This document shows positions 15,648 to 47,409 of a DNA stretch of 64,000 nucleotides, in pieces. The notes under the pieces are model-generated. The model was given only the letters and a program-made list of their open reading frames with translations. It did no database searches and was not told the origin of the DNA. Within the stretch, counting starts at the first letter, position 1; every line of letters starts with the position of its first letter. The stretch comes from Candidatus Moraniibacteriota bacterium (GTDB lineage Bacteria; Patescibacteriota; Minisyncoccia; Moranbacterales; UBA1568): positions 577,895-641,894 of the forward strand of contig JAQTYF010000001.1 in NCBI GenBank assembly GCA_028688415.1. The letters are read 5' to 3'. The translations under genes and the position numbers were made by a program.

Positions 15648-18122
15648 ATGCTCAACAAAAAACAACAAGAAAAGGTTCAAGGAGTTCCCGATTTGAAAAA
15701 AATTATCACTGAAATTCCTGTTACCAAAGGACGCGGCACAGAGCCTTTTGTAAAAGTCTTCAACTATAGTGATCAAAACATCGCCAAAAGTTCTCTCGGG
15801 TCTCTTGTGGGTGTTTTTGAAATTTCCGATAAAGATGAAAATTCTGTCTTCATTGTCAATTTCCTTACTTCTGTAGCAAAAAAAGAATATTTCAGCAATC
15901 TCCGTCGTGGATCTATCGAAAGTTTCGAAGCATCTCTCCATAAAATCAATCTTGCACTAGCAGAACTCGTCAAAGACGGTCATATCGCATGGCTTGGTAA
16001 GTTTCATGGTGCTATCGGCGTACTCGAAAAAAATAATTTGCATTTTTCCGTTACTGGACAGGCACAGATACTCCTCTTACGGAACGGTAACCTTTCAGAA
16101 ATAAGTGATGGAATAACTTCTCCAGAGTCTAACACTCATCCTCTTAAAACGTTTATTGAAATATCGAGCGGACGACTCGTTCCCCAAGATAAAATCATAC
16201 TCACGTCTCCCGAACTTTTTGAACTTCTCTCTACCGAAGAGCTTGAGAAAAATGCTCTCCGTATGGACAACGAGCAGTTTTCTCAGTTTTTACGAACGGT
16301 ACTCGTAAATAAACTCGATATGGGAGGATCTCTTATCGTCGATTTTGAAGAAACTGAACAAATACAAGAAGTAAAGAAAGAGGTAAAAAAGGTTATTAAA
16401 ACGTCACAGAATTTTTTCAGTCAAGAGCCATTTGAAACTGCTCAAAAAGAAAAGAATGCTATCATCGTAAACGGCGTACTCAATAATCATGAAGTTTCTG
16501 ATGCCGAAAAAGAATATACCGATCCTCGTACTCGACATATTTATGTCCATGGCGACACTGAACAGATAGATGAAAGTCATCCATTTCAAGAAAATATGCA
16601 GTCCTTTTTGCAAGACATCGCTCATTCGTTGGAAGGCATACTTATTGCTCAAAAAAAATTACTCCGTAAATTTGGAAAGAGAATAACCCTTTCTTTTGTC
16701 TTCCTGACGGAAAGAACCCTTACAGCATTCTCTACTTTTTTCTCTCTCATTCATAAACAATGGATCAAAGGAAGCGCCGTTCTCGTATCCAAAATACGGT
16801 CTGTCCAAATCATATCACCTATCAAAAAGAAGATTCAGAAAACCTCTCCTATACATATAGAGTACAAACAATCCTTCCCAAGTGATATCAAAATCGTGCC
16901 AACACAAAAAATTTCCCCTGAAAATGAAGAGCCTTCCTCGGATCTTCCTCCGTTTATAAAGGAAAAATTGGTTGCTTTTTATAAGAAAAAAGAACTGTCT
17001 CATCCAGAACATCTCTTTTGGGAACGCTTTATTACTCTGTTTTCACCTCTTTTTTCTTTCTTTATATCATCGTTTACAAAAGTATCCCGAGCATTATTCA
17101 AATTTTTTGTCTTTATCATAGCATTCGCTAAACCAAAGATTCAGCGTCTTTTTGCCCTCTCATTTCTTTTTCTCAGAACGAAATTAAATCAGTATGAAAA
17201 AAAACAGATCATCCTTGCATCTGGTATTGTTGTCACCCTCATTCTGGGAAGTGTTTTTCTAGTGAAATTTTTCAATAAACAAGAAGCTTCCCCAGTGGTT
17301 GAGGTGCCAATTGAAAATGCTCTTCCCTTTTCCTCTTCTCTCGAAACAGAGAAAAATATCCACTTGGTGCAAGACATGCAATCCATCATGACCACGGAAG
17401 ACACCATTATTACTTCAGTACTACTCGATGATGAAATATACCTCATCACTCCCACTGCTGTTCTTAGTGTGAACGAAAAGAAAAGTTTTCTCTTACCAGA
17501 AAAAAGTGGTTCTGTGACACTCGCTACTCCGATGAATGACTTGCGCCTTATTTTCATCTCTACAGATACCAACGAGCTTTTCTCTTTTGCTCCAAGCAAT
17601 GGAAAATTCACAAAAAATACCCTCAATCTCTTGGACGGAACTATCATACAGTCTATCGGCACTTATCTGACATATCTTTATGTATTGGATGCCAATACCA
17701 ATCACATCTATCGTTTTCCACGTGCAGAAGGTGGTTTTGGAACAGGCTCTCTCTGGACCAAATCCCCCCTCGCTCTTGGAAACTCTCCTCAAATAGCAGT
17801 AAGCGAGACAATTTTTGTTGCTCCAGATACAACTCACATTTCAGCTTTTTTCCGTGGTATATCTACCAAGGATTTTGAATCGCCTCTCGCACCCCTTTCT
17901 CTTTCTTCTCTTCTCGCTTCACCTGATCTCGAGAATATCTATGCAATCGATACTAACGAGAAACGCATACTGATATGGAATCAGGAAGGAATGCTCATTG
18001 CTCAGTATTTCTCCGAACAATTTTCTACTCTCAAAAGTATTTCGGTTGATGAAAAAAAGAATACGGTGTTTATCACAACCGAGAAGGAACTTCTGTCATT
18101 CACCCTTGATTCAAAAAAATAA
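15648..18122 (+). CDS. Large membrane protein: PP2C/SpoIIE-like (apparently non-catalytic) N-terminal domain, two TM segments, extracytoplasmic repeat-rich C-terminal half
   Basis: Residues 1-230 show a PPM-fold-like alternation (LGSLVGVFEISD...ILLLRNGN...IILTSPELFELL) without the DGHGG metal motif. TMs FKFFVFIIAFA and IILASGIVVTLILGSVFLV. C-terminal YVLD/IYAID-type repeats. Confidence 0.55.
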   Translation: MLNKKQQEKVQGVPDLKKIITEIPVTKGRGTEPFVKVFNYSDQNIAKSSLGSLVGVFEISDKDENSVFIVNFLTSVAKKEYFSNLRRGSIESFEASLHKINLALAELVKDGHIAWLGKFHGAIGVLEKNNLHFSVTGQAQILLLRNGNLSEISDGITSPESNTHPLKTFIEISSGRLVPQDKIILTSPELFELLSTEELEKNALRMDNEQFSQFLRTVLVNKLDMGGSLIVDFEETEQIQEVKKEVKKVIKTSQNFFSQEPFETAQKEKNAIIVNGVLNNHEVSDAEKEYTDPRTRHIYVHGDTEQIDESHPFQENMQSFLQDIAHSLEGILIAQKKLLRKFGKRITLSFVFLTERTLTAFSTFFSLIHKQWIKGSAVLVSKIRSVQIISPIKKKIQKTSPIHIEYKQSFPSDIKIVPTQKISPENEEPSSDLPPFIKEKLVAFYKKKELSHPEHLFWERFITLFSPLFSFFISSFTKVSRALFKFFVFIIAFAKPKIQRLFALSFLFLRTKLNQYEKKQIILASGIVVTLILGSVFLVKFFNKQEASPVVEVPIENALPFSSSLETEKNIHLVQDMQSIMTTEDTIITSVLLDDEIYLITPTAVLSVNEKKSFLLPEKSGSVTLATPMNDLRLIFISTDTNELFSFAPSNGKFTKNTLNLLDGTIIQSIGTYLTYLYVLDANTNHIYRFPRAEGGFGTGSLWTKSPLALGNSPQIAVSETIFVAPDTTHISAFFRGISTKDFESPLAPLSLSSLLASPDLENIYAIDTNEKRILIWNQEGMLIAQYFSEQFSTLKSISVDEKKNTVFITTEKELLSFTLDSKK

Positions 18123-18134
18123 ATCCTGATTCCT

Positions 18135-18173
18135 AAAAAAGAGTAACAGTGATCCCGTTACTCTTTTTTGTTT
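18135..18173. terminator. Bidirectional terminator between convergent genes
   Basis: aaaaaagagtaacagtgatcccgttactcttttttg: stem gagtaac/gttactc. Confidence 0.65.
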
Positions 18174-18184
18174 CCTGATATTTT

Positions 18185-20677
18185 TTAGAGAGGTTTTTCT
18201 GCAAGCCTCATACGATTCATAATTTCACGATTGACAATAGTCGCATCACGACCATACCGGAGACGCGAGAGTTCTTTGAGAGCATTCGCTATCTCTTGAC
18301 TCCCATTCGTTGGAGCGTATGTTTTCATATTGAATGGCTTGGTAAGCTCATTGTTCATAAGGAGTCTCGCAAAACAATTCCGATTGTCGACATTCATCAG
18401 ATCGCGGGCTGAAAATACAGGAAGAAATTGCTTCTCAAGAAATTCAGCGTCTTCTGATCCGATACGGAACGAAACAAGCGATCCGACATTCCCAAACACT
18501 GCCTTGGAAATTTCTTCTTTGAGCTGAGCAATAAACTGATGCGCCATTGTGAGCACCAATCGATATTTACGAGCCTCTGAGAGGATTTGAGCAATAGAAT
18601 TTGTGGTTACATTCTGGAACTCATCCATATAGAGATAGAAGTCGGTCCGCTCCTCTTCTGGTGTGTCTACACGTGACAGCGCTGCCATCAAGATCTTTCC
18701 GACAATGACCATGCCGAGCAGTTTCGCATTGATTTCACCGATTTTTCCTTTGGAAAGATTGACGAGAAGAATCTTCTTTCCGTCCATAATTTCACGGAAA
18801 TTGAGCGTGCTTTTCTGCTGTCCAATGATTGGGCGCATCATATCATTGGAAATGAACGTTGTAAGCTTGGAAGTAATATACGGCACCATGTTGGCAAGCG
18901 CCGCTTCTCCACCTGCCTTCTCTGCTTCTTTGGTCCAAAAATCGTATGCGATAGGGTTATTACACTTGGAAAGTTTGTACTTGCGAAAATCTTCATCTGC
19001 TAATACTTTGGAAATTTCCATGAGCGTTGATCCGCTCTCAGGATCCTCCATGATAAGCAACATTGCATTACGCATATATTGTTCAAACATTGGTCCACCA
19101 GTGGCTTTCAGATCATAGAGTTGATCAAATATACCAATCATTTCATTGATAACGAACGTTTTTTGCTCTGGATGTTGTGCATCGTACTCGAGCATATTGA
19201 GCCCAATAGGACGTTCGGTATCCGAAGGATCAAAGAGAATGACGTCTTCTGCTCGTTCTTTGGGAATAGCGGTCAAAATATCTTCAATAGCATCTCCGTG
19301 AGGATCAATAAAACAAAAACCATGTCCCGCAAGAGCGTCTTTCTTGGCCATTTCCTGAAGATACACCGACTTACCAACACCCGTCTGTCCAATAACATAC
19401 ATATGACGTCGACGATCATTTTCAGTAATACGAATATCTGTCTTCGTACCGCGATAATCATTGTATCCGAGAAGCAGTCCTTCTTCTGGAATGTTCACTG
19501 GTGGAGGAGCAGCTCCTGCTTTGAGCCACTTGATTTTTGGTGTAGCCGTCGTCGAAATCGGGAAATGGAAAATACTCGCCAATTCTTCGACCGAAAGGAT
19601 CATCTGCTGTTCATCATTAAAGTTACGGAAAATAAAATCATACACTGCTTGTTTTTCACTGATGCGTTTTTTGATACGAAACGTATTTACTTCTGGATTC
19701 TCGAATTGACCAAAAGCATTTTCCAAATGACCCAGGATTTCTTCCGCACGCTCTTGAGTCCCTGCTGATGCAATCAGTCGTATATTGGCACGAAAAGCTC
19801 CTTTATTCGTTTTTTCATCGATAGATTTTACCAATTCTTGTTCTTCGGGAGTAAGGTTGACTTGTTTTTTATCATCTAGAATTGAATTCTTCTCTTTAGA
19901 ACTTGTCAGTGTCTTCATCATTTCTTTTCCAAACGAAGCAGAGGCCTCACGAAGCATTGATTGATGTTTAGCATCCTTGAGACGCTTCCCTTCTTGCATC
20001 CTCTGGGCAATCTTTTTCCCTTCACTACGCCACGCAGTATTCGTACGAGTGAGGAGTATCTGAAGCGAGATGCCTTCTTCGATAGAATTCAACTTACTTA
20101 AAGCATTGGAAATAACATTGAGTGGATCAACATCGAGTCCACGATAGGTACGAAGAGGAAGAGCATGGCTATGAACGAGATCGAGTACAGAAACTGCCGT
20201 ATAGCCACCCGGCGAAAAGATAGTGTATTCCGTCGCTTTTTCAATCACTGCATGAGGGAAAAAACTATGTATTTGTTTCTCTGCACTCTCCCTGAAACGC
20301 TTTGGAACAGAAAGGTAGAAAAATATTTCTTCACTCGAAGAAGGATTGGCAATTTCAAAAATGATTGTTGGAGTATCAAAAAAAAGTCCTTTGAAAAAAC
20401 CTCCCTTGGGCTTCAGAACAGTCAGTGAAGCAAGTAACTGCTCCATAGCAAAAATCTCTTCTTTCCATGCCTCAGCATTCGGAGCCTGTTGCGCTCCCTC
20501 TGGAATTTCTTTACGTGTCACGCGTATCATTTCCAGATCCATATTCATAGACTGATTGATCTGATAACGAAAACGAAAAAAACTTCGAATAACGAGAAAT
20601 GTTCCGCTGATGATAGCGACAGACGCCAAAAGATACACCAACGGTATCAAAAGGATATTCAAATCAAGACCGGTCAT
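18185..20677 (-). CDS. Membrane-anchored type IV secretion ATPase, VirB4/VirD4 (TraG/TraD)-like, FtsK-HerA superfamily
   Basis: N-terminal TM LIPLVYLLASVAIISGTFLVI; Walker A HMYVIGQTGVGKS; IDPHGD; Walker B FYLYMDEFQNV; RKY-type motif EARKYRLVLTMAHQFIAQL as in VirB4 motif C / TraG-D_C. Confidence 0.7.
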   Translation of the reverse strand: MTGLDLNILLIPLVYLLASVAIISGTFLVIRSFFRFRYQINQSMNMDLEMIRVTRKEIPEGAQQAPNAEAWKEEIFAMEQLLASLTVLKPKGGFFKGLFFDTPTIIFEIANPSSSEEIFFYLSVPKRFRESAEKQIHSFFPHAVIEKATEYTIFSPGGYTAVSVLDLVHSHALPLRTYRGLDVDPLNVISNALSKLNSIEEGISLQILLTRTNTAWRSEGKKIAQRMQEGKRLKDAKHQSMLREASASFGKEMMKTLTSSKEKNSILDDKKQVNLTPEEQELVKSIDEKTNKGAFRANIRLIASAGTQERAEEILGHLENAFGQFENPEVNTFRIKKRISEKQAVYDFIFRNFNDEQQMILSVEELASIFHFPISTTATPKIKWLKAGAAPPPVNIPEEGLLLGYNDYRGTKTDIRITENDRRRHMYVIGQTGVGKSVYLQEMAKKDALAGHGFCFIDPHGDAIEDILTAIPKERAEDVILFDPSDTERPIGLNMLEYDAQHPEQKTFVINEMIGIFDQLYDLKATGGPMFEQYMRNAMLLIMEDPESGSTLMEISKVLADEDFRKYKLSKCNNPIAYDFWTKEAEKAGGEAALANMVPYITSKLTTFISNDMMRPIIGQQKSTLNFREIMDGKKILLVNLSKGKIGEINAKLLGMVIVGKILMAALSRVDTPEEERTDFYLYMDEFQNVTTNSIAQILSEARKYRLVLTMAHQFIAQLKEEISKAVFGNVGSLVSFRIGSEDAEFLEKQFLPVFSARDLMNVDNRNCFARLLMNNELTKPFNMKTYAPTNGSQEIANALKELSRLRYGRDATIVNREIMNRMRLAEKPL

Positions 20678-20724
20678 TTTTTGTATGTGTTATATATTTT
20701 TTTGATATTTGCTGGGATAGATTC

Positions 20725-21150
20725 TCAGTCTTTCTTGATCAGACCTTTGGCGAGCAGTCCTTCATACAGATTATCTACGAGTTCATCATGCATCTTATCA
20801 AGTGCATAATAATCTCCGAGAGAACGGGCAACTTTCACCGCATAGACAACTCCTCTTGTCTCAGCGAGCTCAATAAGTTTCTGTACTTTACTCTCCTCAT
20901 CTATCGTCGCACTGATACTCTTTGCATCCAATTGATGATCCGTGTTGTCAGACGGTACTGATGATTGTGATTCGGGTGCCACCTGAGCGAGAATTTCATC
21001 GTATTTTCTTTCTTTCTGTTCACTCGAACCTTCAATGTGTGTATCGATCTGTTCCGATGGAACTGTCAATACATTCTCTGCTGATGTTTCTGAGGTACGT
21101 TCTGGCGTAATAGACATATTCTCCGTTCCAATCGTTTTTTCGTCGGCCAT
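20725..21150 (-). CDS. Hypothetical acidic protein
   Basis: Start taken at MADEKTIG. The longer track ORF reads through the upstream 21-bp repeats, giving an implausible YYLSSII-repeat N-terminus. Confidence 0.45.
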   Translation of the reverse strand: MADEKTIGTENMSITPERTSETSAENVLTVPSEQIDTHIEGSSEQKERKYDEILAQVAPESQSSVPSDNTDHQLDAKSISATIDEESKVQKLIELAETRGVVYAVKVARSLGDYYALDKMHDELVDNLYEGLLAKGLIKKD

Positions 21151-21172
21151 AATTATTGAAGATAAATAATAA

Positions 21173-21223
21173 AAGATAATTGATGATAGATAAGTAACTA
21201 AGAAGATAATTGATGATAGATAA
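21173..21223. repeat. Two 21-bp direct repeats aagataattgatgatagataa (21173..21193, 21203..21223), candidate regulator-binding site
   Basis: Exact copies 30 bp centre to centre, between the 101-aa and 141-aa genes inside the minus-strand operon. Confidence 0.5.
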
Positions 21224-21298
21224 TAGATACTCGATAAAAAAACATTCAACACCCCATCATTTATCACTCATCATGTATCCTGCATCTTCGGTATCTCT

Positions 21299-21604
21299 CT
21301 AGACTGCTCCTTCTGTGAGTTCTTCTTTGAATTTGTCGACAACACCACGTACAAATATATTGTACCCTGGAATCTTGTTTTCGAAAAACGATTCAAGTTC
21401 TTCTTGCTTCGCCTCTCTGTTAAGCAGAGATTCATACTCTGCGACATTTTCATCGCCCAACTTCTCCATCGTTTCAATAAAAATACGCTTCACCAAAGCT
21501 TCTCCTATCTTTGCGAGCAGTTCTTCTTTCTTGTCTTCTGGGACATTTTCCAAATGAAACGCCTCGATGAGTTCTGTCTTCAATGCTTCCTGGTCAAGTG
21601 CCAT
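21299..21604 (-). CDS. Hypothetical small acidic protein
   Basis: 101-aa ORF between the LysM-like protein and the 141-aa gene. Confidence 0.45.
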   Translation of the reverse strand: MALDQEALKTELIEAFHLENVPEDKKEELLAKIGEALVKRIFIETMEKLGDENVAEYESLLNREAKQEELESFFENKIPGYNIFVRGVVDKFKEELTEGAV

Positions 21605-21647
21605 AGATGTATGTAATAAATTGTATTAGTTCAAAAAAAATGAAAAA

Positions 21648-24614
21648 TTATTGAGTGGTCGTATAGAGACCGAGGCGTTGTCCTGGAGTAACCAGCGTCG
21701 ATATCTTCTTGAGATAATCCATGACCGTGACGTTCGGGTGTTCACGCAAAAATGCTATCCTATCGAAAGCAATCTTGTTATCCTCTACACCCTGAAAAAA
21801 TTGCGTAAAATTTTTGATTTGTTCGTGATTCAAACCTGTTTTGTATCCCGTAAAAGATCCTGCTTTGTAGAGTTTTGCATCTTTGAATATATCCATCAGC
21901 TTGATAGAACTCATTTCTTTTTTATCCACAATCCAGTCTTGGCCCAAAGCAGGGTTTTCCATTCGAAATATCTGCATATACCAATCATTCACACGAGGGA
22001 TGAGTTCTGCTGTAAATACTGGTTCACGCGAAACAGATGGTGATTCTACAGGAACAACATTGCTCACAGGAGACTCGGTGACCCGTTCCAATGGAGGAGT
22101 ATTTTCTCCAACAGATTGTGTGGCAATCTTTCCACTCAGAATTTCATCCACTTTGGCATTGGTCAGTGTCGTACCAGGATGCGAGGCGACATAGTCTGCT
22201 ATTTTTGCATCATTGGCAGTGATGGAAACTATCTGATCAGGAGAAAGAGACTGAGCTTGAGAAAGAGCATTCTCAACAAATGCTTTATCAATACCATGAT
22301 CAGAAAACTTAATTGTTTCGCCAGCCTTCAATTGTACGTCACCGTATTTATCTTTCAGCGCATCGATAAAATGAGTTTTTTCTGCCCCTTCGAGTTTCAG
22401 CGTGTCAGCTACCCCTCCTGCTATTTTCCACACTGAGTCACCTGGCTTCACGACATAATCCTGATTGAATACACCTGTGAGAGGGTCTGTATCTGGTTGA
22501 GGAACCTGAGGTGCTTCAATGGGCGCTTCTGATGGTACAGGAACAGACGGAATCGCTAGCGGTGACACTTCTCCAGGAGTCGGAATCTGTGCGGATGCCT
22601 GAGGAGTATTTCCTATTTGATCTTTCACCCAGTCCACTGCCTGATTGCCACCCAGATGATCCATAGCGACCTGAGTCAGCCAGCCAGATCCGACAAGTCC
22701 ACCGACACCCAGGGCCGATACCTTACGCCATGTCTTCGCTCGTTTCTCATTTTGCAATTTCGTATTGAGAGCATTGATATCTTGATCAAGGAGGGTATTG
22801 AGCGCATCAAAAGTAACTTCTGGTTTCATGCCAAGACTTTCTGTCTTGAGTCTCTCCATCTCTTGAGCTATTTCCCCTTCTGCTTGATCAACTCTTTTTC
22901 TCTCTCCGAAACTCTCGAGGAGCGCCTCTGTACCAACAGCCATACCCGCTCCACTGGCCACTTTGCGAATAACTGAAGCAAAAGCAAGTGCTCCTGCTGC
23001 GGTTCCGCTCCCACCAGACAAAGCAATTCCTGCGGTAATGCCCAAGAAAGCTGCTGTAATAGCGAGTTTTCTTGTAAGTGGGATGCGATTATAGGCACGG
23101 CCCAAGTTTCCTAACAGAACAGTTACTTTCTCGATACCACTCGCATCTTTCAGATGTTCTGACTTGTATTGTGTTCGTTCATTGATGAGATTGGTGGATT
23201 CATCGAGCTTGTAATAACGCATGATACGCTCTATCTCTTTTGTTCTTTCCTCTGGAGTCAGTTGTTCTTCATCGATTCTCTTTTGAAGCAGTGCCACTTC
23301 TGCATTCTGAAGATTCTTCACCGCTGTCTCATAATAAACCTGTGCGTCATCTTTTCTCGCATCTTGCTCAATACCAAACATACTCTTGAATTTCTTCCAA
23401 GCATCCCTATTCTTGACATCCGTCTCCACCCAACGAGCACGCATCTCACCAACCATCGTTCGAAGACTATCTATGTTTGCTTGTTCTGCTTCTCGATCTG
23501 TCTCTAATGTTTTTTCTTCGGATGTTTGTAACTCAATTATCGGTTCATTTTTGATAGTCTCAGAAGCTTTTATCTCTTTTGGTTCTTCTTTTTCATCTGT
23601 TGGCACTGTATCAAAACTTCCTTCTTCCTCTTGATCAAGAAGCTCTCGCAATCTGGCTTCATGTCCTGCTCTCACCGATGCCAATCGATCATTTTCTGCT
23701 TTTTTCTCTGTTTTTTGTCTTTCGAGTTCTTCTTGTTCCGCTTTCTGCCACGCTTCTGCAGATACAGAATCCACAACAGGGATTGAAGATATTTTTTGTC
23801 CCTGTGCCTCTCTGACATAACCCTCTGTAGAAAGTTTTTCCTGTAATGCTTCAATAGAGAGACTGTGCGCTGTCATATCGCCTTCATCCTCTTCTCGTGG
23901 TTCTGAAAGCAATTCCTCAGCATTTGCACCCTGTCGAACATCCATCATCCCTTCTGTAAGTGCGGTTACAAAAATTCTCGACTGAGTTCCATCTGCATTT
24001 GTCTTCACCCACATATCTCCCACTTGTGGCACGAAATCTTCAAGACCACCCTCATTGTCTGAAGGTGGAACTATCGGTGGCTCGTCCGGTGGAATCGATC
24101 CTCTACCTCCCCCATTATTTCTACCTCCACGATCGCTTCCGGTCTGTGTTTGTGGCTTGCTTGATGTTTCTGCGTTCTTTCCGCTAGATTTTTTCTTCTG
24201 TGCAGATTCTTGATCAGAGATATTTTTTCTCTTTTTTTCAAGTGTCCTCACCATTTCTTCTCTTGATATGACTTCGGCATCCTCGACTTTCTCTCCTTGT
24301 TTTGCTTTCAGTTCTAATGCTTGTATTTCCTTTCTTAAGAAAGTAATTCTCTCATTAAGATGCTCTTTCTCTTTTAAATCAAGTGATCTGAGCACTATAT
24401 CATTCCCATTATTCTGAGGCTCAGAAATGCCGATATTGTTTTCGTTGTTTCGCCTGCGTTGATTCACAATCTTTCCTGATGTGGTACCAGCATCAAGACT
24501 AGCTGATACTATCGGTTGACTCCTTTCGTTCGAAATGCCTTTTCGAGCCTCAATAGCTGCTGCATTAGCACCTGCCATTATTATTTTTTTTTGTACACTG
24601 AACCTTTCCGCCAT
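21648..24614 (-). CDS. Large membrane protein with coiled-coil N-terminal region, TM segments, Pro-rich linker and LysM-like domain
   Basis: Coiled-coil/low-complexity N-terminal ~500 aa; TMs LAITAAFLGITAGIALSGG and ALGVGGLVGSGWL; Pro-rich QIPTPGEVSPLAIPSVPVPSEAPIEAPQVPQP; LysM-like YVVKPGDSVWKIAGGVAD...AGETIKF. Confidence 0.55.
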   Translation of the reverse strand: MAERFSVQKKIIMAGANAAAIEARKGISNERSQPIVSASLDAGTTSGKIVNQRRRNNENNIGISEPQNNGNDIVLRSLDLKEKEHLNERITFLRKEIQALELKAKQGEKVEDAEVISREEMVRTLEKKRKNISDQESAQKKKSSGKNAETSSKPQTQTGSDRGGRNNGGGRGSIPPDEPPIVPPSDNEGGLEDFVPQVGDMWVKTNADGTQSRIFVTALTEGMMDVRQGANAEELLSEPREEDEGDMTAHSLSIEALQEKLSTEGYVREAQGQKISSIPVVDSVSAEAWQKAEQEELERQKTEKKAENDRLASVRAGHEARLRELLDQEEEGSFDTVPTDEKEEPKEIKASETIKNEPIIELQTSEEKTLETDREAEQANIDSLRTMVGEMRARWVETDVKNRDAWKKFKSMFGIEQDARKDDAQVYYETAVKNLQNAEVALLQKRIDEEQLTPEERTKEIERIMRYYKLDESTNLINERTQYKSEHLKDASGIEKVTVLLGNLGRAYNRIPLTRKLAITAAFLGITAGIALSGGSGTAAGALAFASVIRKVASGAGMAVGTEALLESFGERKRVDQAEGEIAQEMERLKTESLGMKPEVTFDALNTLLDQDINALNTKLQNEKRAKTWRKVSALGVGGLVGSGWLTQVAMDHLGGNQAVDWVKDQIGNTPQASAQIPTPGEVSPLAIPSVPVPSEAPIEAPQVPQPDTDPLTGVFNQDYVVKPGDSVWKIAGGVADTLKLEGAEKTHFIDALKDKYGDVQLKAGETIKFSDHGIDKAFVENALSQAQSLSPDQIVSITANDAKIADYVASHPGTTLTNAKVDEILSGKIATQSVGENTPPLERVTESPVSNVVPVESPSVSREPVFTAELIPRVNDWYMQIFRMENPALGQDWIVDKKEMSSIKLMDIFKDAKLYKAGSFTGYKTGLNHEQIKNFTQFFQGVEDNKIAFDRIAFLREHPNVTVMDYLKKISTLVTPGQRLGLYTTTQ

Positions 24615-24643
24615 AATCGTACTATATATAATTAAAGACTTTT

Positions 24644-26188
24644 TTATTGTATACGATCAGTAAAATACTTCTCGATAAACAGATGAGCAAACAATTGTTT
24701 CTCAGAGGCGTCCATCGGTAATTGGTCGAGGCGGATCATAATACTTAAAGAGAGTGCTTGTATAATATCGTTTTTGTTTTCTTCTATAAATTCGACGAGA
24801 TTTCGACCTTCTAACAAAGTATTCATTTCTTGCAGACCAGCCGCAAGAGTACTTTTGAGACGGTCTTCTTCGAATGCGATTTCTAGAGTATTCTTTCCAA
24901 GTTTTTGAAAGATTTTTTCATACACTTCGCCAGCATTTTCTGTTTTCGTCTTTTCTGGTGTTTTTGTGGTATCTACCACTGGTTCTGTAGATAGAGGCGA
25001 GACTTTTTTTGCTCGGGGCATTATTAATTTCCACTGAAACTCGTCATCCAGAAATTGCAAAAATTTCTTTACATATTTCGGCGTCACTTTCAAACCTTTC
25101 TTCTCGCCATAATGATACTTTATTTCCGTACCAGATTCAGAAATCTCTTCAATAACAAGTTCTTCTCCCTCTTTGTCTTTTCCAAACGGTCTCCGCTTGC
25201 TCCGTAAGGCTTCTACAAGCACAGCAAACAACTCTTCACCAGAATATTCTTTCTTTTTTTCTGATGCCACTTTCTTTCCTTCTCGTATAACAAATTTCGC
25301 TTCATTAACATCGGAAAGAGCTCGTTTGAGATCATCAATATTTCTTTTTTCAAAAGCGTCCTTGGCAGCACTCCGTAATGAGTAAAGATAAGAAGAAAAC
25401 TTACTAAAATTCCCTTGTTGTTTTCCTTTTTTATCGCCAGGGAGAACTTCGACAAGAATTTTGGCTTCTGATTCTTTTTCTTTGCATTTTTTCCTAATAG
25501 AATCCATCATATCTTGCAGTGGTTTGAGTAATTCTTCTCGTTTTTCTCGAATAACTCTATTCACAGCTTCCACACATTTTAAGAATTCAGTATCTGCTAT
25601 TCTTTTATCTATTCTTGCTTCTCTTTCCGGTATTTGATCCAAGAGAACATCACTCAATGTGTGGGTGATTTGTAATTTCTCTACTAACGCATCAAGATCC
25701 TTCTCATTTGTCACTGTATTAATTTCTGTTTCTCTATAATTAAACTGTATCAACAAATCAGTCCGAACAAGTTCATGCAATTTTTTTTGAACTGCTTGTT
25801 CAATCTCTCTTTTCAACTGACTTATCACAGTAACTTCATCATTAGTGAGGTCTCTCTGCAATGAATCCTTAATTTCGTCTAAAGGAAAAAATCGAATATC
25901 GGTCGGCCCTTCACCCTCCTTGGTCTTCTCGGTGATCACTATACTTTTTCGAAGGCGTACGTACTCTTCTGGCGTTTGAACCTTCTCAATAATAATCATC
26001 CAGTCTTTTTGAATTTCATCAAGAGCTCCTGAAAGATCAGCCGAAATCTCTGATTCTGCATTTTTTTCAGATCGAATATCAGCAGAACTATTTCTCTGTC
26101 CAGTATCAGCTGATGCTCTCAATTCTGCTACGACTTTATCTCCTGCTGTAGCAATTATATTTTCCAAGCTCGAATGAGGTTCTGCCAT
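24644..26188 (-). CDS. Hypothetical acidic protein, paralog of the 26199..27845 product over the C-terminal ~100 aa
   Basis: The C-terminus ...EKIFQKLGKNTLEIAFEEDRLKSTLAAGLQEM... aligns with ...ETLYQSLGHDDKEIFSEEQRLADALRDGLNDI... of the upstream gene. Confidence 0.5.
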   Translation of the reverse strand: MAEPHSSLENIIATAGDKVVAELRASADTGQRNSSADIRSEKNAESEISADLSGALDEIQKDWMIIIEKVQTPEEYVRLRKSIVITEKTKEGEGPTDIRFFPLDEIKDSLQRDLTNDEVTVISQLKREIEQAVQKKLHELVRTDLLIQFNYRETEINTVTNEKDLDALVEKLQITHTLSDVLLDQIPEREARIDKRIADTEFLKCVEAVNRVIREKREELLKPLQDMMDSIRKKCKEKESEAKILVEVLPGDKKGKQQGNFSKFSSYLYSLRSAAKDAFEKRNIDDLKRALSDVNEAKFVIREGKKVASEKKKEYSGEELFAVLVEALRSKRRPFGKDKEGEELVIEEISESGTEIKYHYGEKKGLKVTPKYVKKFLQFLDDEFQWKLIMPRAKKVSPLSTEPVVDTTKTPEKTKTENAGEVYEKIFQKLGKNTLEIAFEEDRLKSTLAAGLQEMNTLLEGRNLVEFIEENKNDIIQALSLSIMIRLDQLPMDASEKQLFAHLFIEKYFTDRIQ

Positions 26189-26198
26189 AATACTTCTT

Positions 26199-27845
26199 TT
26201 ATTTCACGAATTCCTCAACACATTTTCTGACAAATGTATTTGAAAAGAGATTCTTCTCTGATGCGGTCCAGGAAAATTTCTCCAAGCCATCGACAAATTT
26301 TTGAGAGAAAGCTGTAATAATCTTTTCTTTGTGTTCAATAATACTTTCAACTCCGATTTGATCTCTGATATCGTTCAGACCATCCCTGAGAGCGTCTGCT
26401 AATCTCTGTTCTTCAGAAAAGATTTCTTTGTCATCATGACCGAGACTCTGGTAGAGAGTTTCATACGATCGCTCTTCTGATTCTACACTATTATTCTGCA
26501 TTGAGGAAACGATTTGTTCGCTCTCATCCTGAAAAATGATTTGTTTTCCTCGTTTTGGTTTTTTTGTATCAAACTTTTTCTTTCCTTCTTCTGTTTTCTG
26601 TTCGGTATATCCTGATTTTTTTGGTGATATTTGTTTCACCCGACCGCCGATAGATTCATCATCTTCTCCGATGCCTCCATCGTTTTTGTCTTTTTTCCCG
26701 AGGAATATTCTTTTTTCGAATGCGTCCAATTTTTCCCAGACCTCCATAATTTCTGCGGATGATGAATGTTCATCTACTGATTGAGCCCATTCATCTACTT
26801 GTCTGACGAATTCTGGTGGACTCGGAGCATCGTCTGCTATATCGCCACTAAAGGCGATCGTCGATTGTTCACATTTCTTCTTCAGTGCATCTACTTTTCT
26901 GTCGAGAAGAACTTTTTGGTATCCTTTTTCTACCAATTCAATATCTGGTTTATCATCTCCCTGTTCGTTTTCCAACGACTTCAACTCTGATATTTTGAGT
27001 TCCAGGGCATAATCTGGCAAAGAAGCTTCAAGGGCATGGAGCTCAGCAAACAAAAGGAATCCTTGACGTCCCTGTTCTACAATATGATCATCAAGTTTGT
27101 TCCATTCTTCCCCAATTGTTTCAATCTTCTCGTGTATTGATTGAGATTGCTGTAATATTTCTTCTCCCTCTTTTTTCTTTTCTGGATCATCAATCTCTCC
27201 AGAGAGATATGGTCCATATTCTTCATCAACAAATGCATTCCATGATTCTATCATTGTACGACTTGCCTCGAATTCACGAATAAAAGCATTTTCCAGCTTC
27301 ATCATTTCTCCTTCATACAGGGCATAAAATTCTGGATACTGTTCTTTTATTGGATCCGTTTTTTCCATTCCCGCAACCAATACACGGAAGTTTTCCAGGT
27401 GTTTTTTCTCTCCCTGCGCCCTCCTGTTCTTCTCTATCCCGTGAATATCGGTTCTTGTGTAATAAATCTGTGGTTTTCCTCCTTTGGTCTTCGCTATTGT
27501 TCCTACGGCAATACGATCACCGCTTGTGGCATCCTGAAAAACGTCACCTTTCTGTGGAAACGGAAAATCTTCTTCTGGAATGACATCGTTATTTTGTTTT
27601 TTCGGCGGTTCGAGAACAGTCTGGGCGTCTGATTTGTCTCCGGCAACCGCTGTATCTGGAGGAATATTCGACTGAACAGACTCAGACTCCCTTTCCTTAT
27701 CAAGAATGATTGGTGGTTGTACAATCATTTCTTCACGAGGGAGCGACTGAAGAACAAACTGTCCATCTTTGAGCGGAGGGAGTGGTTTCTGTAAAAGGTT
27801 TCCGACCTGTTCAAAAAAAGGAAATTTCATAATTTTTCTTTTCAA
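26199..27845 (-). CDS. Hypothetical acidic protein, first gene of the T4SS-ATPase operon; shares a C-terminal domain with 24644..26188
   Basis: 548-aa soluble, Glu/Asp-rich; short divergent intergenic to the GT-C gene. Confidence 0.5.
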   Translation of the reverse strand: MKRKIMKFPFFEQVGNLLQKPLPPLKDGQFVLQSLPREEMIVQPPIILDKERESESVQSNIPPDTAVAGDKSDAQTVLEPPKKQNNDVIPEEDFPFPQKGDVFQDATSGDRIAVGTIAKTKGGKPQIYYTRTDIHGIEKNRRAQGEKKHLENFRVLVAGMEKTDPIKEQYPEFYALYEGEMMKLENAFIREFEASRTMIESWNAFVDEEYGPYLSGEIDDPEKKKEGEEILQQSQSIHEKIETIGEEWNKLDDHIVEQGRQGFLLFAELHALEASLPDYALELKISELKSLENEQGDDKPDIELVEKGYQKVLLDRKVDALKKKCEQSTIAFSGDIADDAPSPPEFVRQVDEWAQSVDEHSSSAEIMEVWEKLDAFEKRIFLGKKDKNDGGIGEDDESIGGRVKQISPKKSGYTEQKTEEGKKKFDTKKPKRGKQIIFQDESEQIVSSMQNNSVESEERSYETLYQSLGHDDKEIFSEEQRLADALRDGLNDIRDQIGVESIIEHKEKIITAFSQKFVDGLEKFSWTASEKNLFSNTFVRKCVEEFVK

Positions 27846-27888
27846 TGTATCTTTGTTATAATTCTATCATACAAAACAAAAAAAATAT

Positions 27889-29508
27889 ATGTCTCTCTTT
27901 CGTAAATATTCATCTCATCAGATTGCAACAGGATTTCTTCTTTTTGGTATTCTCGTACTCGCATTTTCTGTGAGAATATACCACATCGAAAGTATTCCGG
28001 CCGGTATCTATCCAGACGAAGCTGCGAACGGTGTCGATGCGCTCCATGCGCTCGAGACCGGAGTATATCAACTCTTCTACACAGCCAATTATGGACGGGA
28101 AGGGCTCTTCATCAACCTTCAGGCACTCTCGATATCTCTTTTCGGTAATACCATCCTCGGACTCAAGCTCTGGTCCATCATTTTTGGAACCCTCTCAGTA
28201 CTCGGCATCTACCTTCTTGGCAAAGAACTCTTCCACAGACGAATTGCTGGCTTATTTGCATCCTTCATGCTCGCGACATCCTACTGGGCAATCAATTTCT
28301 CCCGCATCGGATTTCGAGCCATCATGACTACATTCCTTCTCACTTTCTCATTTTATTACTTTTTTCGAGGTCTTCGCACGAGAAAATTCAGAGATTTTTT
28401 CATCTCTGGTATCCTTTTCGGAACTGGAATGCATACGTATATTGCATTCCGTGTTGCCCCTCTCATACTTCTTCTCCTCCTTCCAGCGCTGATACTTTCC
28501 TATGAACGTTTTTTCGCACGTTATTACAAACACGCACTCCTATTCATACTTGGTGCATTCATTTCTGCATTACCAATGTTCTATCATTTTTTTGTTTCTC
28601 ATCCAGAAAATTTCGAATCACGTTCTGATGAAATATCCATCTTTTCTCCGAAAATCAATCATGGCAGTATTTCACAAACACTCGCTCGTACATTCTCCCT
28701 TTCTCTCATAAAATACAATTTCTTTGGTGATCAGAATTGGCGTCACAACTATCCACCCTATCCGATACTCAGTCCTTTCGTTGGAACATTTTTCCTTGCC
28801 GGATTCCTTTTTGTTCTCTGGCAAACAGGAGCACTTCTCATACGTCGTATTCGTTATCATAATCGAGATACCAGGCTCGTTCTATATTTCTTTCTGCTTG
28901 GATCTTTTTTTACGATGCTTCTTCCGGAATTCCTCTCTGGAGAAGGGCTTCCTCACGCTCTCCGTTCGATCGGAACACAGATGCCAGTATTTCTCATCGC
29001 TACTCTCCCAGCGCTCTGGATATTTCATCAAGCTCTGCGTTCTCGAACAGGTTCGCGTATTGCACTGCTCTTCGTTCTGTTTATCGCTTTGAGTGGAAGT
29101 ATGGCATTTGATCTGACAAAATACTTTGTTTTCTTTGCAAAAAGTCCAAATGCTGGAGGATCATTCAACGAAAACTATACCAATATGGGACGATACCTCC
29201 TCACACTTTCTCCTGAAACAAAAAAATACGTACTCTTTTCTGATGAAGGAAACAATGACCGCTTCAGACTCCCTGTCTTTGCTCATCCTGTTTACTATCT
29301 TACTTATGGACGCGTCGCCAATATGGAAATTATCGGAGAAAACACTCTAATCCAAAGTCCAGCTATCTTTCTCATGGTGAATTACAACGAAGAAATAGCG
29401 AAAAAGATATTTGAGCGTGTGCCGAATACAAGGATAGAACGTATCGATATGAACGGACCTGATCGTACTGGTGGAGATTTCAATGTCATTTTTTTATCTG
29501 AAAACTAA
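27889..29508 (+). CDS. GT-C fold glycosyltransferase, PMT/ArnT-like (GT39/GT83)
   Basis: More than 10 TMs; first-loop motif YPDEAANG (DE motif); C-terminal soluble domain. Confidence 0.7.
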   Translation: MSLFRKYSSHQIATGFLLFGILVLAFSVRIYHIESIPAGIYPDEAANGVDALHALETGVYQLFYTANYGREGLFINLQALSISLFGNTILGLKLWSIIFGTLSVLGIYLLGKELFHRRIAGLFASFMLATSYWAINFSRIGFRAIMTTFLLTFSFYYFFRGLRTRKFRDFFISGILFGTGMHTYIAFRVAPLILLLLLPALILSYERFFARYYKHALLFILGAFISALPMFYHFFVSHPENFESRSDEISIFSPKINHGSISQTLARTFSLSLIKYNFFGDQNWRHNYPPYPILSPFVGTFFLAGFLFVLWQTGALLIRRIRYHNRDTRLVLYFFLLGSFFTMLLPEFLSGEGLPHALRSIGTQMPVFLIATLPALWIFHQALRSRTGSRIALLFVLFIALSGSMAFDLTKYFVFFAKSPNAGGSFNENYTNMGRYLLTLSPETKKYVLFSDEGNNDRFRLPVFAHPVYYLTYGRVANMEIIGENTLIQSPAIFLMVNYNEEIAKKIFERVPNTRIERIDMNGPDRTGGDFNVIFLSEN

Positions 29509-46927: not shown

Positions 46928-47409
46928 CAATACTTGTCCTACTTCTTTAATTGATTTGGAAGCAAGGCTTCCAAAAGATGGAAACAAGCTTCCAAATCTC
47001 CTCTGTTTCTTATGCGATATGACATCAGAAAGTACTCTCTTCTTTTTCTTGGAGAGGAGAGCGACAAAAAAACCAGTTGTTTTTTTTATTGTTTCTAGGA
47101 GTACTACGAAGAAATTTTTCTTCCATTCCGAAAAATGACGTCTGAAGAAAGTGCTTCTTTTTCTCTGCATTCTCTGCGGTGCAACACTATCAAAACACCC
47201 TTTCTTTCTCTGAATGAGGGTTTGATATGGTTTTCTTTTTTCTTCTACAAAAGACACTCTTCGCATAGTGTTTCTTTTTGTTTCTTCGCGCTCAAACATG
47301 GGTGTTCAAAAAAGAAACATCCATTGAAAGTATACCATAGAAATCTTCTTTTTGAAGAGAAAAAAGCCGTCTCTCGAAAAGAGATAACGGCTTATAGGAA
47401 AAATGAGGG

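What the first reader, a model, noticed from the sequence alone, without database searches (positions are those of the whole stretch)
24644..27845. Tandem acidic paralogs sharing a C-terminal domain
The 514-aa and 548-aa products are soluble, highly acidic and coiled-coil-rich and are unalike except at their C-termini. Those align well: EKIFQKLGKNTLEIAFEEDRLKSTLAAGLQEMNTLLEGRNLVEFIEENKNDIIQAL... against ETLYQSLGHDDKEIFSEEQRLADALRDGLNDIRDQIGVESIIEHKEKIITAF..., and LFAHLFIEKYF against LFSNTFVRKCV. A shared docking or secretion-signal domain on divergent passenger regions is what one expects for substrates or adaptors of the downstream T4SS-like ATPase.
Basis: seen in the sequence. Interest (0 to 1): 0.5.

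Follow-up and report, generated by a model that had tools for sequence, protein, structure and literature searches.

The report
Shared C-terminal domain, orphan-T4CP operon
Two neighbouring genes of an uncultured Moranbacteria (CPR) bacterium really do end in the same ~92-residue five-helix domain, an undescribed and rare domain found only on mosaic cytoplasmic proteins that head a conserved operon ending in a VirD4-like ATPase, where it most likely acts as an attachment tag, although nothing shows directly what it binds.

Summary
A (24644-26188, 514 aa) and B (26199-27830, probably 543 aa rather than 548) align only at their C-termini: 38% identity over 85 aa, E 3e-10, and z = 18.8 against shuffles.

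The shared part is a confidently folded five-helix bundle (pLDDT 92). It has no match in Pfam, NCBIfam or the PDB.

A profile search of 1.84 billion proteins finds 33 clusters. The domain is always at the extreme C-terminus, and the host proteins are mosaic with no recognisable enzyme domain.

In all nine loci whose downstream gene could be read, a gene with this domain lies directly upstream of a large three-TM protein. Where the contig reaches further, DUF5663, a ~141-aa protein and a DUF8128/VirD4-type ATPase follow.

In other genomes B's core module and A's M2 module sit in one polypeptide with a single copy of the domain. A and B are therefore two halves of one functional unit.

Close relatives with a 72-77% identical ATPase lack the domain entirely, so it is a lineage-specific accessory.

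My best reading is an assembly or docking tag for adaptor/scaffold proteins of an orphan coupling-ATPase machine (0.45). Rivals are a secretion signal (0.25) and a dimerisation domain (0.2). It is not XVIPCD or BID.

The parts
26199..27830 (-). Gene B, the first gene of the operon. Probably 543 aa (ATG at 27830); the finding's 548-aa form starts at the TTG at 27845. Soluble, acidic, modular.
   Evidence: ORF list. NCBI and P0004 start. No TM segment. pI 4.77.
26952..27566 (-). B-specific modules: a small beta-rich 'Bn' module (FPFPQKGDVFQD...) followed by the helical 'B-core' (DPIKEQYPEFYA...NKLDDHIVEQGRQ).
   Evidence: Iterated HMM searches find Bn in 12 family proteins and B-core in 15. None is A-like.
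26202..26477 (-). C-terminal domain of B (C-dom, subtype I, 92 aa). It ends at the stop codon.
   Evidence: BLASTP. Profile hits. Subtype clustering.
24644..26188 (-). Gene A, 514 aa, starting 10 nt after B's stop. Soluble. Consists of an N-terminal helical region, the M2 module, a disordered linker and the C-dom.
   Evidence: AlphaFold2 model with mean pLDDT 80. Gap sizes.
25025..25252 (-). M2 module of A (residues 313-388), with an alpha-beta3-alpha arrangement.
   Evidence: Secondary structure from the model. HMM finds M2 in 20 family proteins, including four that also carry B-core. BLASTP of P0008 against A gives E 6e-5.
24647..24934 (-). C-terminal domain of A (C-dom, subtype I, residues 419-514): a five-helix bundle preceded by a disordered linker (389-418).
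   Evidence: AlphaFold2 on the 33-sequence alignment gives pLDDT 92.4 and pTM 0.82, with helices 2-15, 19-43, 49-55, 57-72 and 79-98 of the 99-aa construct. Full-length model.
21648..24614 (-). 988-aa envelope-spanning protein, starting 29 nt after A's stop. It has an acidic cytoplasmic N-terminal half that contains an M3 module (196-285), a hydrophobic region at about 511-655, and an extracytoplasmic C-terminal half with a weak LysM-like motif at 720-732.
   Evidence: Hydrophobic segments. LysM E 0.027, below the Pfam cut-off. M3 is shared with the C-dom protein P0005, E 1.6e-21. Orthologues follow the C-dom gene in other loci.
21299..21604 (-). DUF5663 protein, 101 aa, pI 4.5.
   Evidence: Pfam PF18908, 25.7 bits against a cut-off of 23.7. 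Conserved position in L001, L004, L006, L007, L008, L012 and L013.
20725..21150 (-). 141-aa acidic protein with no family assignment. Its real start is MADEK; the 180-aa ORF in the list is an over-extension. The C-terminal ~60 aa are nearly invariant between loci.
   Evidence: Alignment A5. Orthologues of 139-145 aa in seven loci.
18185..20677 (-). 830-aa VirD4/TrwB-type coupling ATPase with one N-terminal TM helix, a DUF8128 region, Walker A GQTGVGKS (430-437) and Walker B LYMDEFQ (682-688).
   Evidence: Pfam TraG-D_C and TrwB_AAD_bind above cut-off. NCBIfam TraD/VirD4-like hits, all far below their cut-offs. PDB hits to TrwB and DotL. DUF8128 in the precomputed Pfam annotation and more than 5540 homologues. 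Motif positions.

Best explanation
A and B are cytoplasmic, largely helical, modular proteins that open a six-gene operon: B, A, a 988-aa three-TM envelope protein, DUF5663, a 141-aa protein, and a DUF8128/VirD4-type ATPase.

Shown:
- Their common C-terminus is a ~92-residue five-helix bundle from a previously undescribed family.
- The domain occurs only at the extreme C-terminus of proteins built from one shared set of modules.
- In every locus where the downstream gene could be read, except P0013's, a gene with this domain lies immediately upstream of the large membrane protein.
- In other genomes the hallmark modules of B and of A are in one chain that ends in a single copy of the domain.

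Inferred:
- A and B are two halves of one functional unit, and each separate polypeptide needs its own copy of the domain.
- The domain is therefore a protein-protein 'address' that attaches each polypeptide to the membrane complex encoded downstream.
- The most likely partner is the fast-evolving cytoplasmic N-terminal half of the membrane protein, or the small-protein/ATPase coupling complex.
- A and B then act as adaptor or scaffold parts of this orphan coupling-ATPase machine rather than as its cargo.
For: 1. Homology is beyond chance: E 3e-10 and z 18.8. There are 33 real clusters in 1.84e9 proteins, with 0-8 residues after the domain.
2. It is an autonomous fold (pLDDT 92.4) behind a disordered linker.
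3. Rosetta-stone evidence: P0008, P0020, P0030 and P0031 carry B-core, M2 and one C-dom. A single gene fills the slot in L001 and L004.
4. Position is fixed in ten loci: the window, L001-L004, L006, L008, L009, L010 and L014. Gaps to the next gene are 10 and 29 nt in the window and 15 nt or less elsewhere.
5. Modules are shared with the cytoplasmic half of the membrane protein: the M3 module of the 988-aa protein matches P0005 at E 1.6e-21.
6. No enzymatic domain was found in 12 members tested. I saw no immunity-like partner genes.
7. The ATPase is 70-86% identical across Moranbacteria, whereas C-dom subtypes are only 12-47% identical. Lineages with a 72-77% identical ATPase have no C-dom. The domain is thus an accessory that probably co-evolves with a variable partner.
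8. A's orthologue P0002 is 52% identical over the N-terminal 79% but carries a different C-dom subtype, 12% identical to A's. The domain behaves as an exchangeable cassette.
Against: - No interaction was tested, because no multimer prediction was available.
- The partner is unidentified.
- A putative N-terminal helix shared by A-like proteins and the membrane proteins, which would fit head-to-tail docking, is not statistically supported.
- A strict extreme-C-terminal position, fast evolution and mosaicism also fit secreted T4SS substrates.
- Some subtype II members end in a short basic tail (KEKPKK), reminiscent of bipartite T4SS signals.
- One member, P0013 (an ORF cut by a contig end), is followed by a P-type ATPase fragment instead of the membrane protein.
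- The loci are phylogenetically related, so the co-occurrence counts are not independent.
Confidence: 0.45

Rival explanations
1. The C-dom is a translocation signal recognised by the VirD4-like coupling ATPase, directly or through the small acidic DUF5663 and 141-aa proteins. On this reading A and B are exported substrates.
For: - The domain is always at the extreme C-terminus, as T4SS signals are.
- It is in an operon with a true T4CP-type ATPase that retains a region matching TrwB's AAD-containing domain.
- Two small acidic proteins lie next to the ATPase, recalling the DotL adaptors.
- The N-terminal parts are fast-evolving and mosaic.
- Some subtype II members have basic tails.
- Patescibacteria hold thousands of T4CPs that are not next to virB4 and whose role is unknown (PMC12102498).
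Against: - The 64-kb window has no VirB4 or channel component.
- There are only one or two C-dom genes per locus, always in one slot, with no catalytic domain.
- The B and A modules are fused in other genomes, and a module is shared with the cytoplasmic part of the membrane protein.
- Nearly identical ATPases work without any C-dom protein.
- The fold and sequence are unlike XVIPCD or BID.
Confidence: 0.25
2. The C-dom is a homo- or heterodimerisation domain. Two C-doms pair, joining A to B (or two copies of the single-gene form) without needing any other operon product.
For: - Both halves of the split protein keep a C-dom, so C-dom pairing would rebuild the fused architecture.
- Pairs often carry different subtypes, such as I with II in L002 and L003, as expected for co-evolving heterodimers.
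Against: - In L006, L008 and L010 only the second gene has a recognisable C-dom (hhalign probability 0.6% for the first gene's C-terminus), so heterodimerisation cannot be general.
- Dimerisation does not explain the invariant position directly upstream of the membrane protein.
Confidence: 0.2
3. The similarity is a chance or low-complexity effect between two charged helical proteins.
For: Both proteins are rich in E, K and L and are mostly helical.
Against: - Composition-corrected BLASTP gives E 3e-10, and the shuffle test gives z 18.8.
- The profile retrieves only proteins with the domain at the C-terminus, down to E 1e-29.
- The structure prediction is highly confident.
Confidence: 0.01

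Closest known systems
XVIPCD (Xanthomonas VirD4-interacting protein conserved domain) of X-Tfe effectors
   Same: A conserved domain of about 100 residues at the C-terminus of otherwise different proteins, genetically linked to a VirD4-type coupling ATPase. XVIPCD binds the all-alpha domain of VirD4 (PMC8740702).
   Different: - XVIPCD has two helices packed on a three-stranded sheet plus a glutamine-rich tail (PMC8740702). The C-dom is an all-alpha five-helix bundle with no tail.
- There is no sequence match to any PDB chain.
- X-Tfes carry toxin domains and work with a complete VirB machine. Neither is seen here.
BID domain plus basic tail of Bartonella Bep effectors
   Same: A helical C-terminal domain of about 100 residues on modular proteins. 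A few subtype II members end in a short basic tail.
   Different: [quoted passage not shown]
- A and B have no basic tail.
- No VirB system or relaxase-derived ancestry is visible.
Type IV coupling complex of Legionella (DotL with the small adaptors IcmS, IcmW and LvgA)
   Same: A T4CP encoded with small acidic partner proteins that could mediate client recognition. DotL is one of only three PDB relatives of the ATPase.
   Different: - DUF5663 and the 141-aa protein show no homology to IcmS or IcmW.
- The window has no Dot/Icm channel genes.
- The match of the ATPase to DotL is weak (E 0.006).
Inter-subunit docking domains of PKS/NRPS assembly lines (from my own knowledge, not tested against structures)
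   Same: Short C-terminal domains on consecutive gene products that fix the order in which separately encoded modules assemble. The parallel is that split and fused forms of the same module set coexist.
   Different: - These proteins contain no enzymology.
- The expected N-terminal partner motif on the next gene product is not statistically supported.
- The C-dom is much larger than typical docking domains.
Orphan VirD4-like T4CPs of Patescibacteria (PMC12102498)
   Same: The ATPase is one of the many Patescibacterial VirD4 homologues that are not encoded near virB4. The paper counts 5,713, of which only 148 are near virB4, and suggests exaptation.
   Different: In the sections I read, the paper does not describe the operon partners (membrane protein, DUF5663, 141-aa protein) or the C-dom proteins.

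Membership tests
XVIPCD | Fold: two N-terminal antiparallel helices packed on a three-stranded antiparallel beta-sheet | tested here: not met
   The C-dom model is five helices with no strand (pLDDT 92.4). The XVIPCD fold is as described in PMC8740702.
XVIPCD | Conserved sequence motifs and a glutamine-rich C-terminal tail | tested here: not met
   A profile of the C-dom against all PDB sequences gives no hit better than E 0.016 (IpgB2, unrelated). The C-dom ends 0-8 residues before the stop codon and has no Q-rich tail.
XVIPCD | Binds the all-alpha domain of VirD4 and is needed for translocation | not testable with these tools
   No multimer prediction or experiment was available.
XVIPCD | Carried by toxins that have cognate immunity genes and a full VirB/VirD4 system | tested here: not met
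   No Pfam domain was found in A, B or ten other members. The window has no VirB4 or other VirB components.
BID domain | Four-helix bundle with a hook, followed by a positively charged tail | tested here: not met
Type IV coupling protein (VirD4/TrwB/TraD), for the downstream ATPase | N-terminal membrane anchor followed by an FtsK/HerA-type NTPase with Walker A and Walker B motifs and an inserted all-alpha domain | tested here: met
   One TM helix at 6-24. Walker A 430-437 and Walker B 682-688. Pfam TrwB_AAD_bind 23.4 bits (cut-off 20.5) and TraG-D_C 28.2 bits (cut-off 22). TrwB is the best PDB hit.
Type IV coupling protein (VirD4/TrwB/TraD), for the downstream ATPase | Works with a VirB4-containing T4SS channel and/or a relaxase | tested here: not met
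   I found no VirB4, VirB6, VirB8 or relaxase among the annotated ORFs of the 64-kb window. A distant locus in the genome cannot be excluded. The NCBIfam equivalog scores are far below their cut-offs.
DotL-type coupling complex adaptors (IcmS/IcmW) | Small acidic proteins homologous to IcmS, IcmW or LvgA that bind the T4CP tail | tested here: not met
   DUF5663 (pI 4.5) and the 141-aa protein (pI 4.5) are small and acidic but match no IcmS/IcmW family. Binding is not testable here.
Head-to-tail docking pair (C-terminal domain of gene n binds the N-terminal helix of gene n+1) | A conserved N-terminal partner motif on the product of the next gene | tested here: inconclusive
   By eye, A-like proteins and seven membrane proteins start with an Ala/Lys-rich helix. 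This helix is absent from three membrane proteins in loci without a C-dom. However, an HMM of it does not separate A-like N-termini from the background.
Spidroin-type C-terminal dimerisation domain | A five-helix bundle at the extreme C-terminus that forms a dimer | tested here: inconclusive

The most novel reading that the evidence does not exclude
The C-dom could be the recognition handle of a VirB-independent machine. On this reading, an orphan VirD4-type ATPase, a PG-binding three-TM protein and two small acidic adaptors in CPR bacteria recruit modular client proteins through a new five-helix C-terminal domain. The complex is then either assembled head-to-tail or the clients are exported across the CPR envelope towards the host. 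That would give the thousands of 'orphan' Patescibacterial T4CPs a first mechanistic handle.
Probability: 0.15. Interest if true: 0.7.

Novelty: new variant of a known kind. Interest (0 to 1): 0.42.

Why it matters
Patescibacteria encode thousands of VirD4-like coupling ATPases away from any VirB4, and their role is unknown (PMC12102498).

This locus shows that, in Moranbacteria, one such ATPase sits in a stable chromosomal operon with a large envelope-spanning protein and two small acidic proteins. One sub-lineage has added modular cytoplasmic proteins that all carry the same undescribed C-terminal domain.

If that domain is the tag that connects clients or adaptors to the machine, it provides a concrete pair of partners to test. 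It would also be a way to find out what the orphan ATPases move or assemble.

If it is only a lineage-specific scaffold domain, the finding is a small addition to the list of CPR-specific protein families.

Tried and rejected
- Family searches: Pfam, NCBIfam, PADLOC and PHROGs scans of A and B gave no hit.
- PDB sequence search: a profile of the C-dom gave nothing meaningful.
- Fold searches:
  - Foldseek of full-length A against the PDB: best E 0.67.
  - Foldseek of the C-dom against viral structures: best E 1.7.
  - The afdb50 library was not available.
- Relationship to neighbouring genes: profile-profile comparison of the C-dom with DUF5663 and with the 141-aa protein shows none.
- Divergent C-termini: comparison with the C-termini of the first-gene products of L006, L008 and L010 gives probability 0.6%, so they are not demonstrably homologous.
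- Collection scans:
  - GTDB species genomes, C-dom patterns: nothing.
  - GTDB species genomes, B-core patterns: nothing.
  - JGI metagenomes, C-dom subtype II patterns: nothing.
  - JGI metagenomes, B-core patterns: one locus, L014.
  - One alignment was too variable to be used for a scan.
- N-terminal helix: an HMM test for a motif shared by A-like proteins and the membrane proteins was not significant.
- Promoter and terminator scan of the operon: at chance level.
- Rfam: nothing in 17500-28500.
- Rejected ideas:
  - Defence system: only generic ATPase hits in PADLOC.
  - Prophage or mobile element: synteny with holB, ftsQ, PMT_2, RmuC and prfA is stable across Moranbacteria.
  - Toxin effectors: no catalytic domain and no immunity-like genes.
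Full report
**1. What is in the sequence**

The finding covers two co-directional minus-strand ORFs, A (24644-26188, 514 aa) and B (26199-27845).

- B's exact product, starting at the ATG at 27830 (543 aa), is an NCBI protein of a 'Candidatus Moranbacteria bacterium' MAG on a 939-kb contig. The 80%-identical orthologue P0004 has the same start. I therefore take B as 543 aa.
- BLASTP of A against B gives a single significant segment at the C-termini: 38% identity over 85 residues, E 3e-10. Nothing else is below E = 1.
- The Smith-Waterman score is 123. Shuffled controls give 27.8 +/- 5.1 with a maximum of 51, so z = 18.8. Composition does not explain the match.
- Neither protein has a hydrophobic segment.
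- B has pI 4.8 and A has pI 5.4. All cytoplasmic products of the operon are acidic.
- An HMM of the two C-termini finds no third copy in the six-frame translation of the window.

**2. The operon**

The minus-strand genes follow each other in this order:

| Gene | Coordinates | Gap to next gene | Main evidence |
|---|---|---|---|
| B | 26199-27830 | 10 nt | |
| A | 24644-26188 | 29 nt | |
| 988-aa protein | 21648-24614 | 43 nt | |
| DUF5663 protein, 101 aa | 21299-21604 | 148 nt | |
| 141-aa protein | 20725-21150 | 47 nt | |
| 830-aa ATPase | 18185-20677 | (last gene) | |

- The 988-aa protein has an acidic N-terminal half, a hydrophobic region at about 511-655, and a C-terminal half with a sub-threshold LysM-like motif.
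- The 141-aa protein has a nearly invariant C-terminal 60 residues.
- The ATPase has one N-terminal TM helix, a DUF8128 region, Walker A and B motifs, and Pfam TrwB_AAD_bind and TraG-D_C above their cut-offs. TrwB and DotL are its only PDB relatives.

So the 'T4SS-like ATPase' is a real VirD4/TrwB-type coupling protein. However, the rest of the window is housekeeping: prfA, prmC, a Glycos_transf_4 (MraY-type) glycosyltransferase, RmuC, holB, ftsQ, PMT_2 glycosyltransferases, MreB, an EPSP_synthase-family enzyme (MurA-like), glycolysis genes, RecA and FtsK. It holds no VirB4 or other channel gene.

This matches the published observation that 5,713 VirD4 homologues occur in Patescibacteria and only 148 are near virB4 (PMC12102498).

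**3. The shared domain is a family**

*Sequence searches.* Word-indexed searches found only two relatives of A and six of B, none annotated. All of them end with the same motif pattern, ERTYE.L...SWT.SEK.LF...F.

A profile of eight C-termini was searched against 1.84 billion representative proteins. It returned 35 hits at E <= 1e-3:
- Two are TPR-like false positives.
- The other 33 carry the domain with only 0-8 residues after it.
- Their lengths range from 96 to 960 aa.

*Structure.*
- With a 33-sequence alignment, AlphaFold2 folds the 99-residue C-terminus of A as a five-helix bundle (pLDDT 92.4, pTM 0.82).
- In the full-length model (mean pLDDT 80) the bundle follows a disordered linker at 389-418. 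Upstream of the linker are the alpha-beta3-alpha module M2 (313-388) and a long-helix region (50-296).

*Comparison with known structures and families.*
- The domain matches nothing in Pfam, NCBIfam, PADLOC or PHROGs.
- It matches no PDB sequence.
- Foldseek against viral models gives nothing.

*Subtypes.* The domains cluster into three subtypes. A and B both have subtype I but belong to different sub-clusters.

**4. The N-terminal parts are mosaic and complementary**

Iterated HMMs define four modules:

| Module | Where it occurs |
|---|---|
| Bn | 12 proteins |
| B-core | 15 proteins |
| M2 | 20 proteins |
| M3 | the 988-aa membrane protein (196-285) and the C-dom protein P0005, E 1.6e-21 |

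- Four proteins (P0008, P0020, P0030, P0031) combine B-core and M2 in one chain with one C-dom. A and B therefore correspond to a split form of what is a single polypeptide elsewhere.
- A's orthologue P0002 is 52% identical over the N-terminal 79% but carries a subtype II C-dom that is only 12% identical to A's. The domain has been exchanged as a cassette.
- None of 12 members tested has a Pfam domain.

**5. Genomic contexts**

Synteny is holB, ftsQ, two divergent PMT_2 genes, then a variable slot, then the large membrane protein, DUF5663, a ~141-aa protein and the ATPase. Beyond the ATPase lie a convergent ~800-aa TM protein, a 201-aa protein and RmuC. The slot varies as follows:

| Slot content | Loci |
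|---|---|
| B-like plus A-like, both with a C-dom | window, L002, L003 |
| B-like (C-dom) plus the start of an A-like gene; contig ends before its C-terminus | L014 |
| First gene with an unrelated C-terminus, second gene with a C-dom | L006, L008/L009, L010 |
| A single C-dom gene | L001, L004 |
| No C-dom at all | L007 (178 aa plus a 1581-aa membrane protein), L012 and L013 (slot empty) |

- The ATPases of the loci without a C-dom are 72-77% identical to the window's.
- A six-frame search of these loci confirms one C-dom in each of L001, L004, L006 and L008, and none in L007, L012 or L013.
- The only deviant context is P0013. Its ORF is cut by a contig end and is followed by a P-type ATPase fragment.
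- Scans of GTDB species representatives found no relative, so the family is rare.

**6. Interpretation**

*Shown:*
- A homologous, autonomous C-terminal domain.
- Restriction to one operon slot.
- Split and fused forms of the same module set.
- A module shared with the cytoplasmic half of the membrane protein.
- Accessory status relative to a highly conserved ATPase.

*Inferred:* because each separately encoded half keeps its own copy, the domain most plausibly supplies what covalent linkage supplies in the fused forms, namely attachment to the same complex.

- Its divergence (12-47% identity between subtypes), set against 70-86% for the ATPase, argues for a variable partner. The candidates are the N-terminal half of the membrane protein, or another C-dom, rather than a conserved ATPase surface.
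- I therefore favour an assembly or docking tag on adaptor/scaffold proteins (0.45).
- The secretion-signal reading (0.25) keeps the extreme-C-terminal position, the T4CP linkage and the small acidic neighbours in its favour. It lacks a channel, multiple clients and catalytic cargo.
- An attractive head-to-tail model has the C-dom of gene n binding an N-terminal Ala/Lys-rich helix of gene n+1. It fits by eye but failed a statistical test, so it is recorded only as a lead.

**7. Comparison with known systems**

Functionally the nearest analogues are the C-terminal T4CP-recognition domains XVIPCD and BID, and the adaptor-based DotL coupling complex.

Membership in XVIPCD or BID is rejected on fold, motifs, tail and context. 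The ATPase meets the sequence criteria of a T4CP but has no associated T4SS in the window.

I class the finding as a new variant of a known kind: a shared C-terminal module on proteins linked to a coupling ATPase. Its function has not been demonstrated.

**8. Limits**

- No multimer prediction or whole-genome census could be run.
- All contexts come from related Moranbacteria, so the counts are not independent.
- B was not modelled.
- The afdb50 library was unavailable.

Noticed in passing
window 21158-21237: The 148-nt gap between the DUF5663 gene and the 141-aa gene holds two or three direct copies of AAGATAATTGATGATAGATAA. Translating the repeat produces the spurious 'YYLSSIIF' N-terminus of the 180-aa ORF in the ORF list. 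It may be a regulatory site inside the operon.
   Followed up: partly
window 18185-20677: The ATPase, including its DUF8128 region, has full-length distant homologues (about 22% identity over 86% of its length) annotated as hypothetical proteins in Bacillus phages such as SP-10, phage G gp156 and Goe26. It also matches phrog_5156 at E 1.5e-87.
   Followed up: partly
window 20725-21150: The C-terminal ~60 residues of the 141-aa protein (DEESKVQKLIELA..GV..AVKVARSL.DYYALD.MHDELVD.LYEGLLAKGLI) are almost invariant between loci whose slot proteins are under 30% identical. It matches no family.
   Followed up: partly
window 27830 region; proteins P0006-P0009, P0012, P0015, L006:1201-3252, L008:7928-9946: First-gene (B-like) proteins share an N-terminal motif, M..(F/L)EK(V/I)FG..P...EKSSGGS. 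B itself (MKFPFFEQ...) keeps only the first part. The 1581-aa membrane protein of L007, which has no C-dom partner, carries a GEKSS motif near its N-terminus.
   Followed up: no
window 15648-18122 (+): An 824-aa protein with one TM helix (521-539) and no family match lies convergent with the ATPase. It is conserved in the same position in L006, L007, L012 and L013.
   Followed up: no
window 41510-47299 (-): A 1929-aa protein with a lactonase-type beta-propeller followed by five purple-acid-phosphatase-N/FN3-like repeats. It is probably a giant surface protein.
   Followed up: no
L012:5564-9025 and L013:6860-9157: In Moranbacteria-like genomes with a 73-77% identical ATPase the slot is empty, and the membrane protein directly follows the divergent PMT_2 genes. 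The C-dom proteins are therefore a lineage-specific addition.
   Followed up: yes
L011:1-326: P0013 (96 aa, C-dom only) is an ORF that is open to the contig edge. It is followed by a P-type ATPase fragment rather than the membrane protein, which makes it the only context that deviates from the operon rule.
   Followed up: partly
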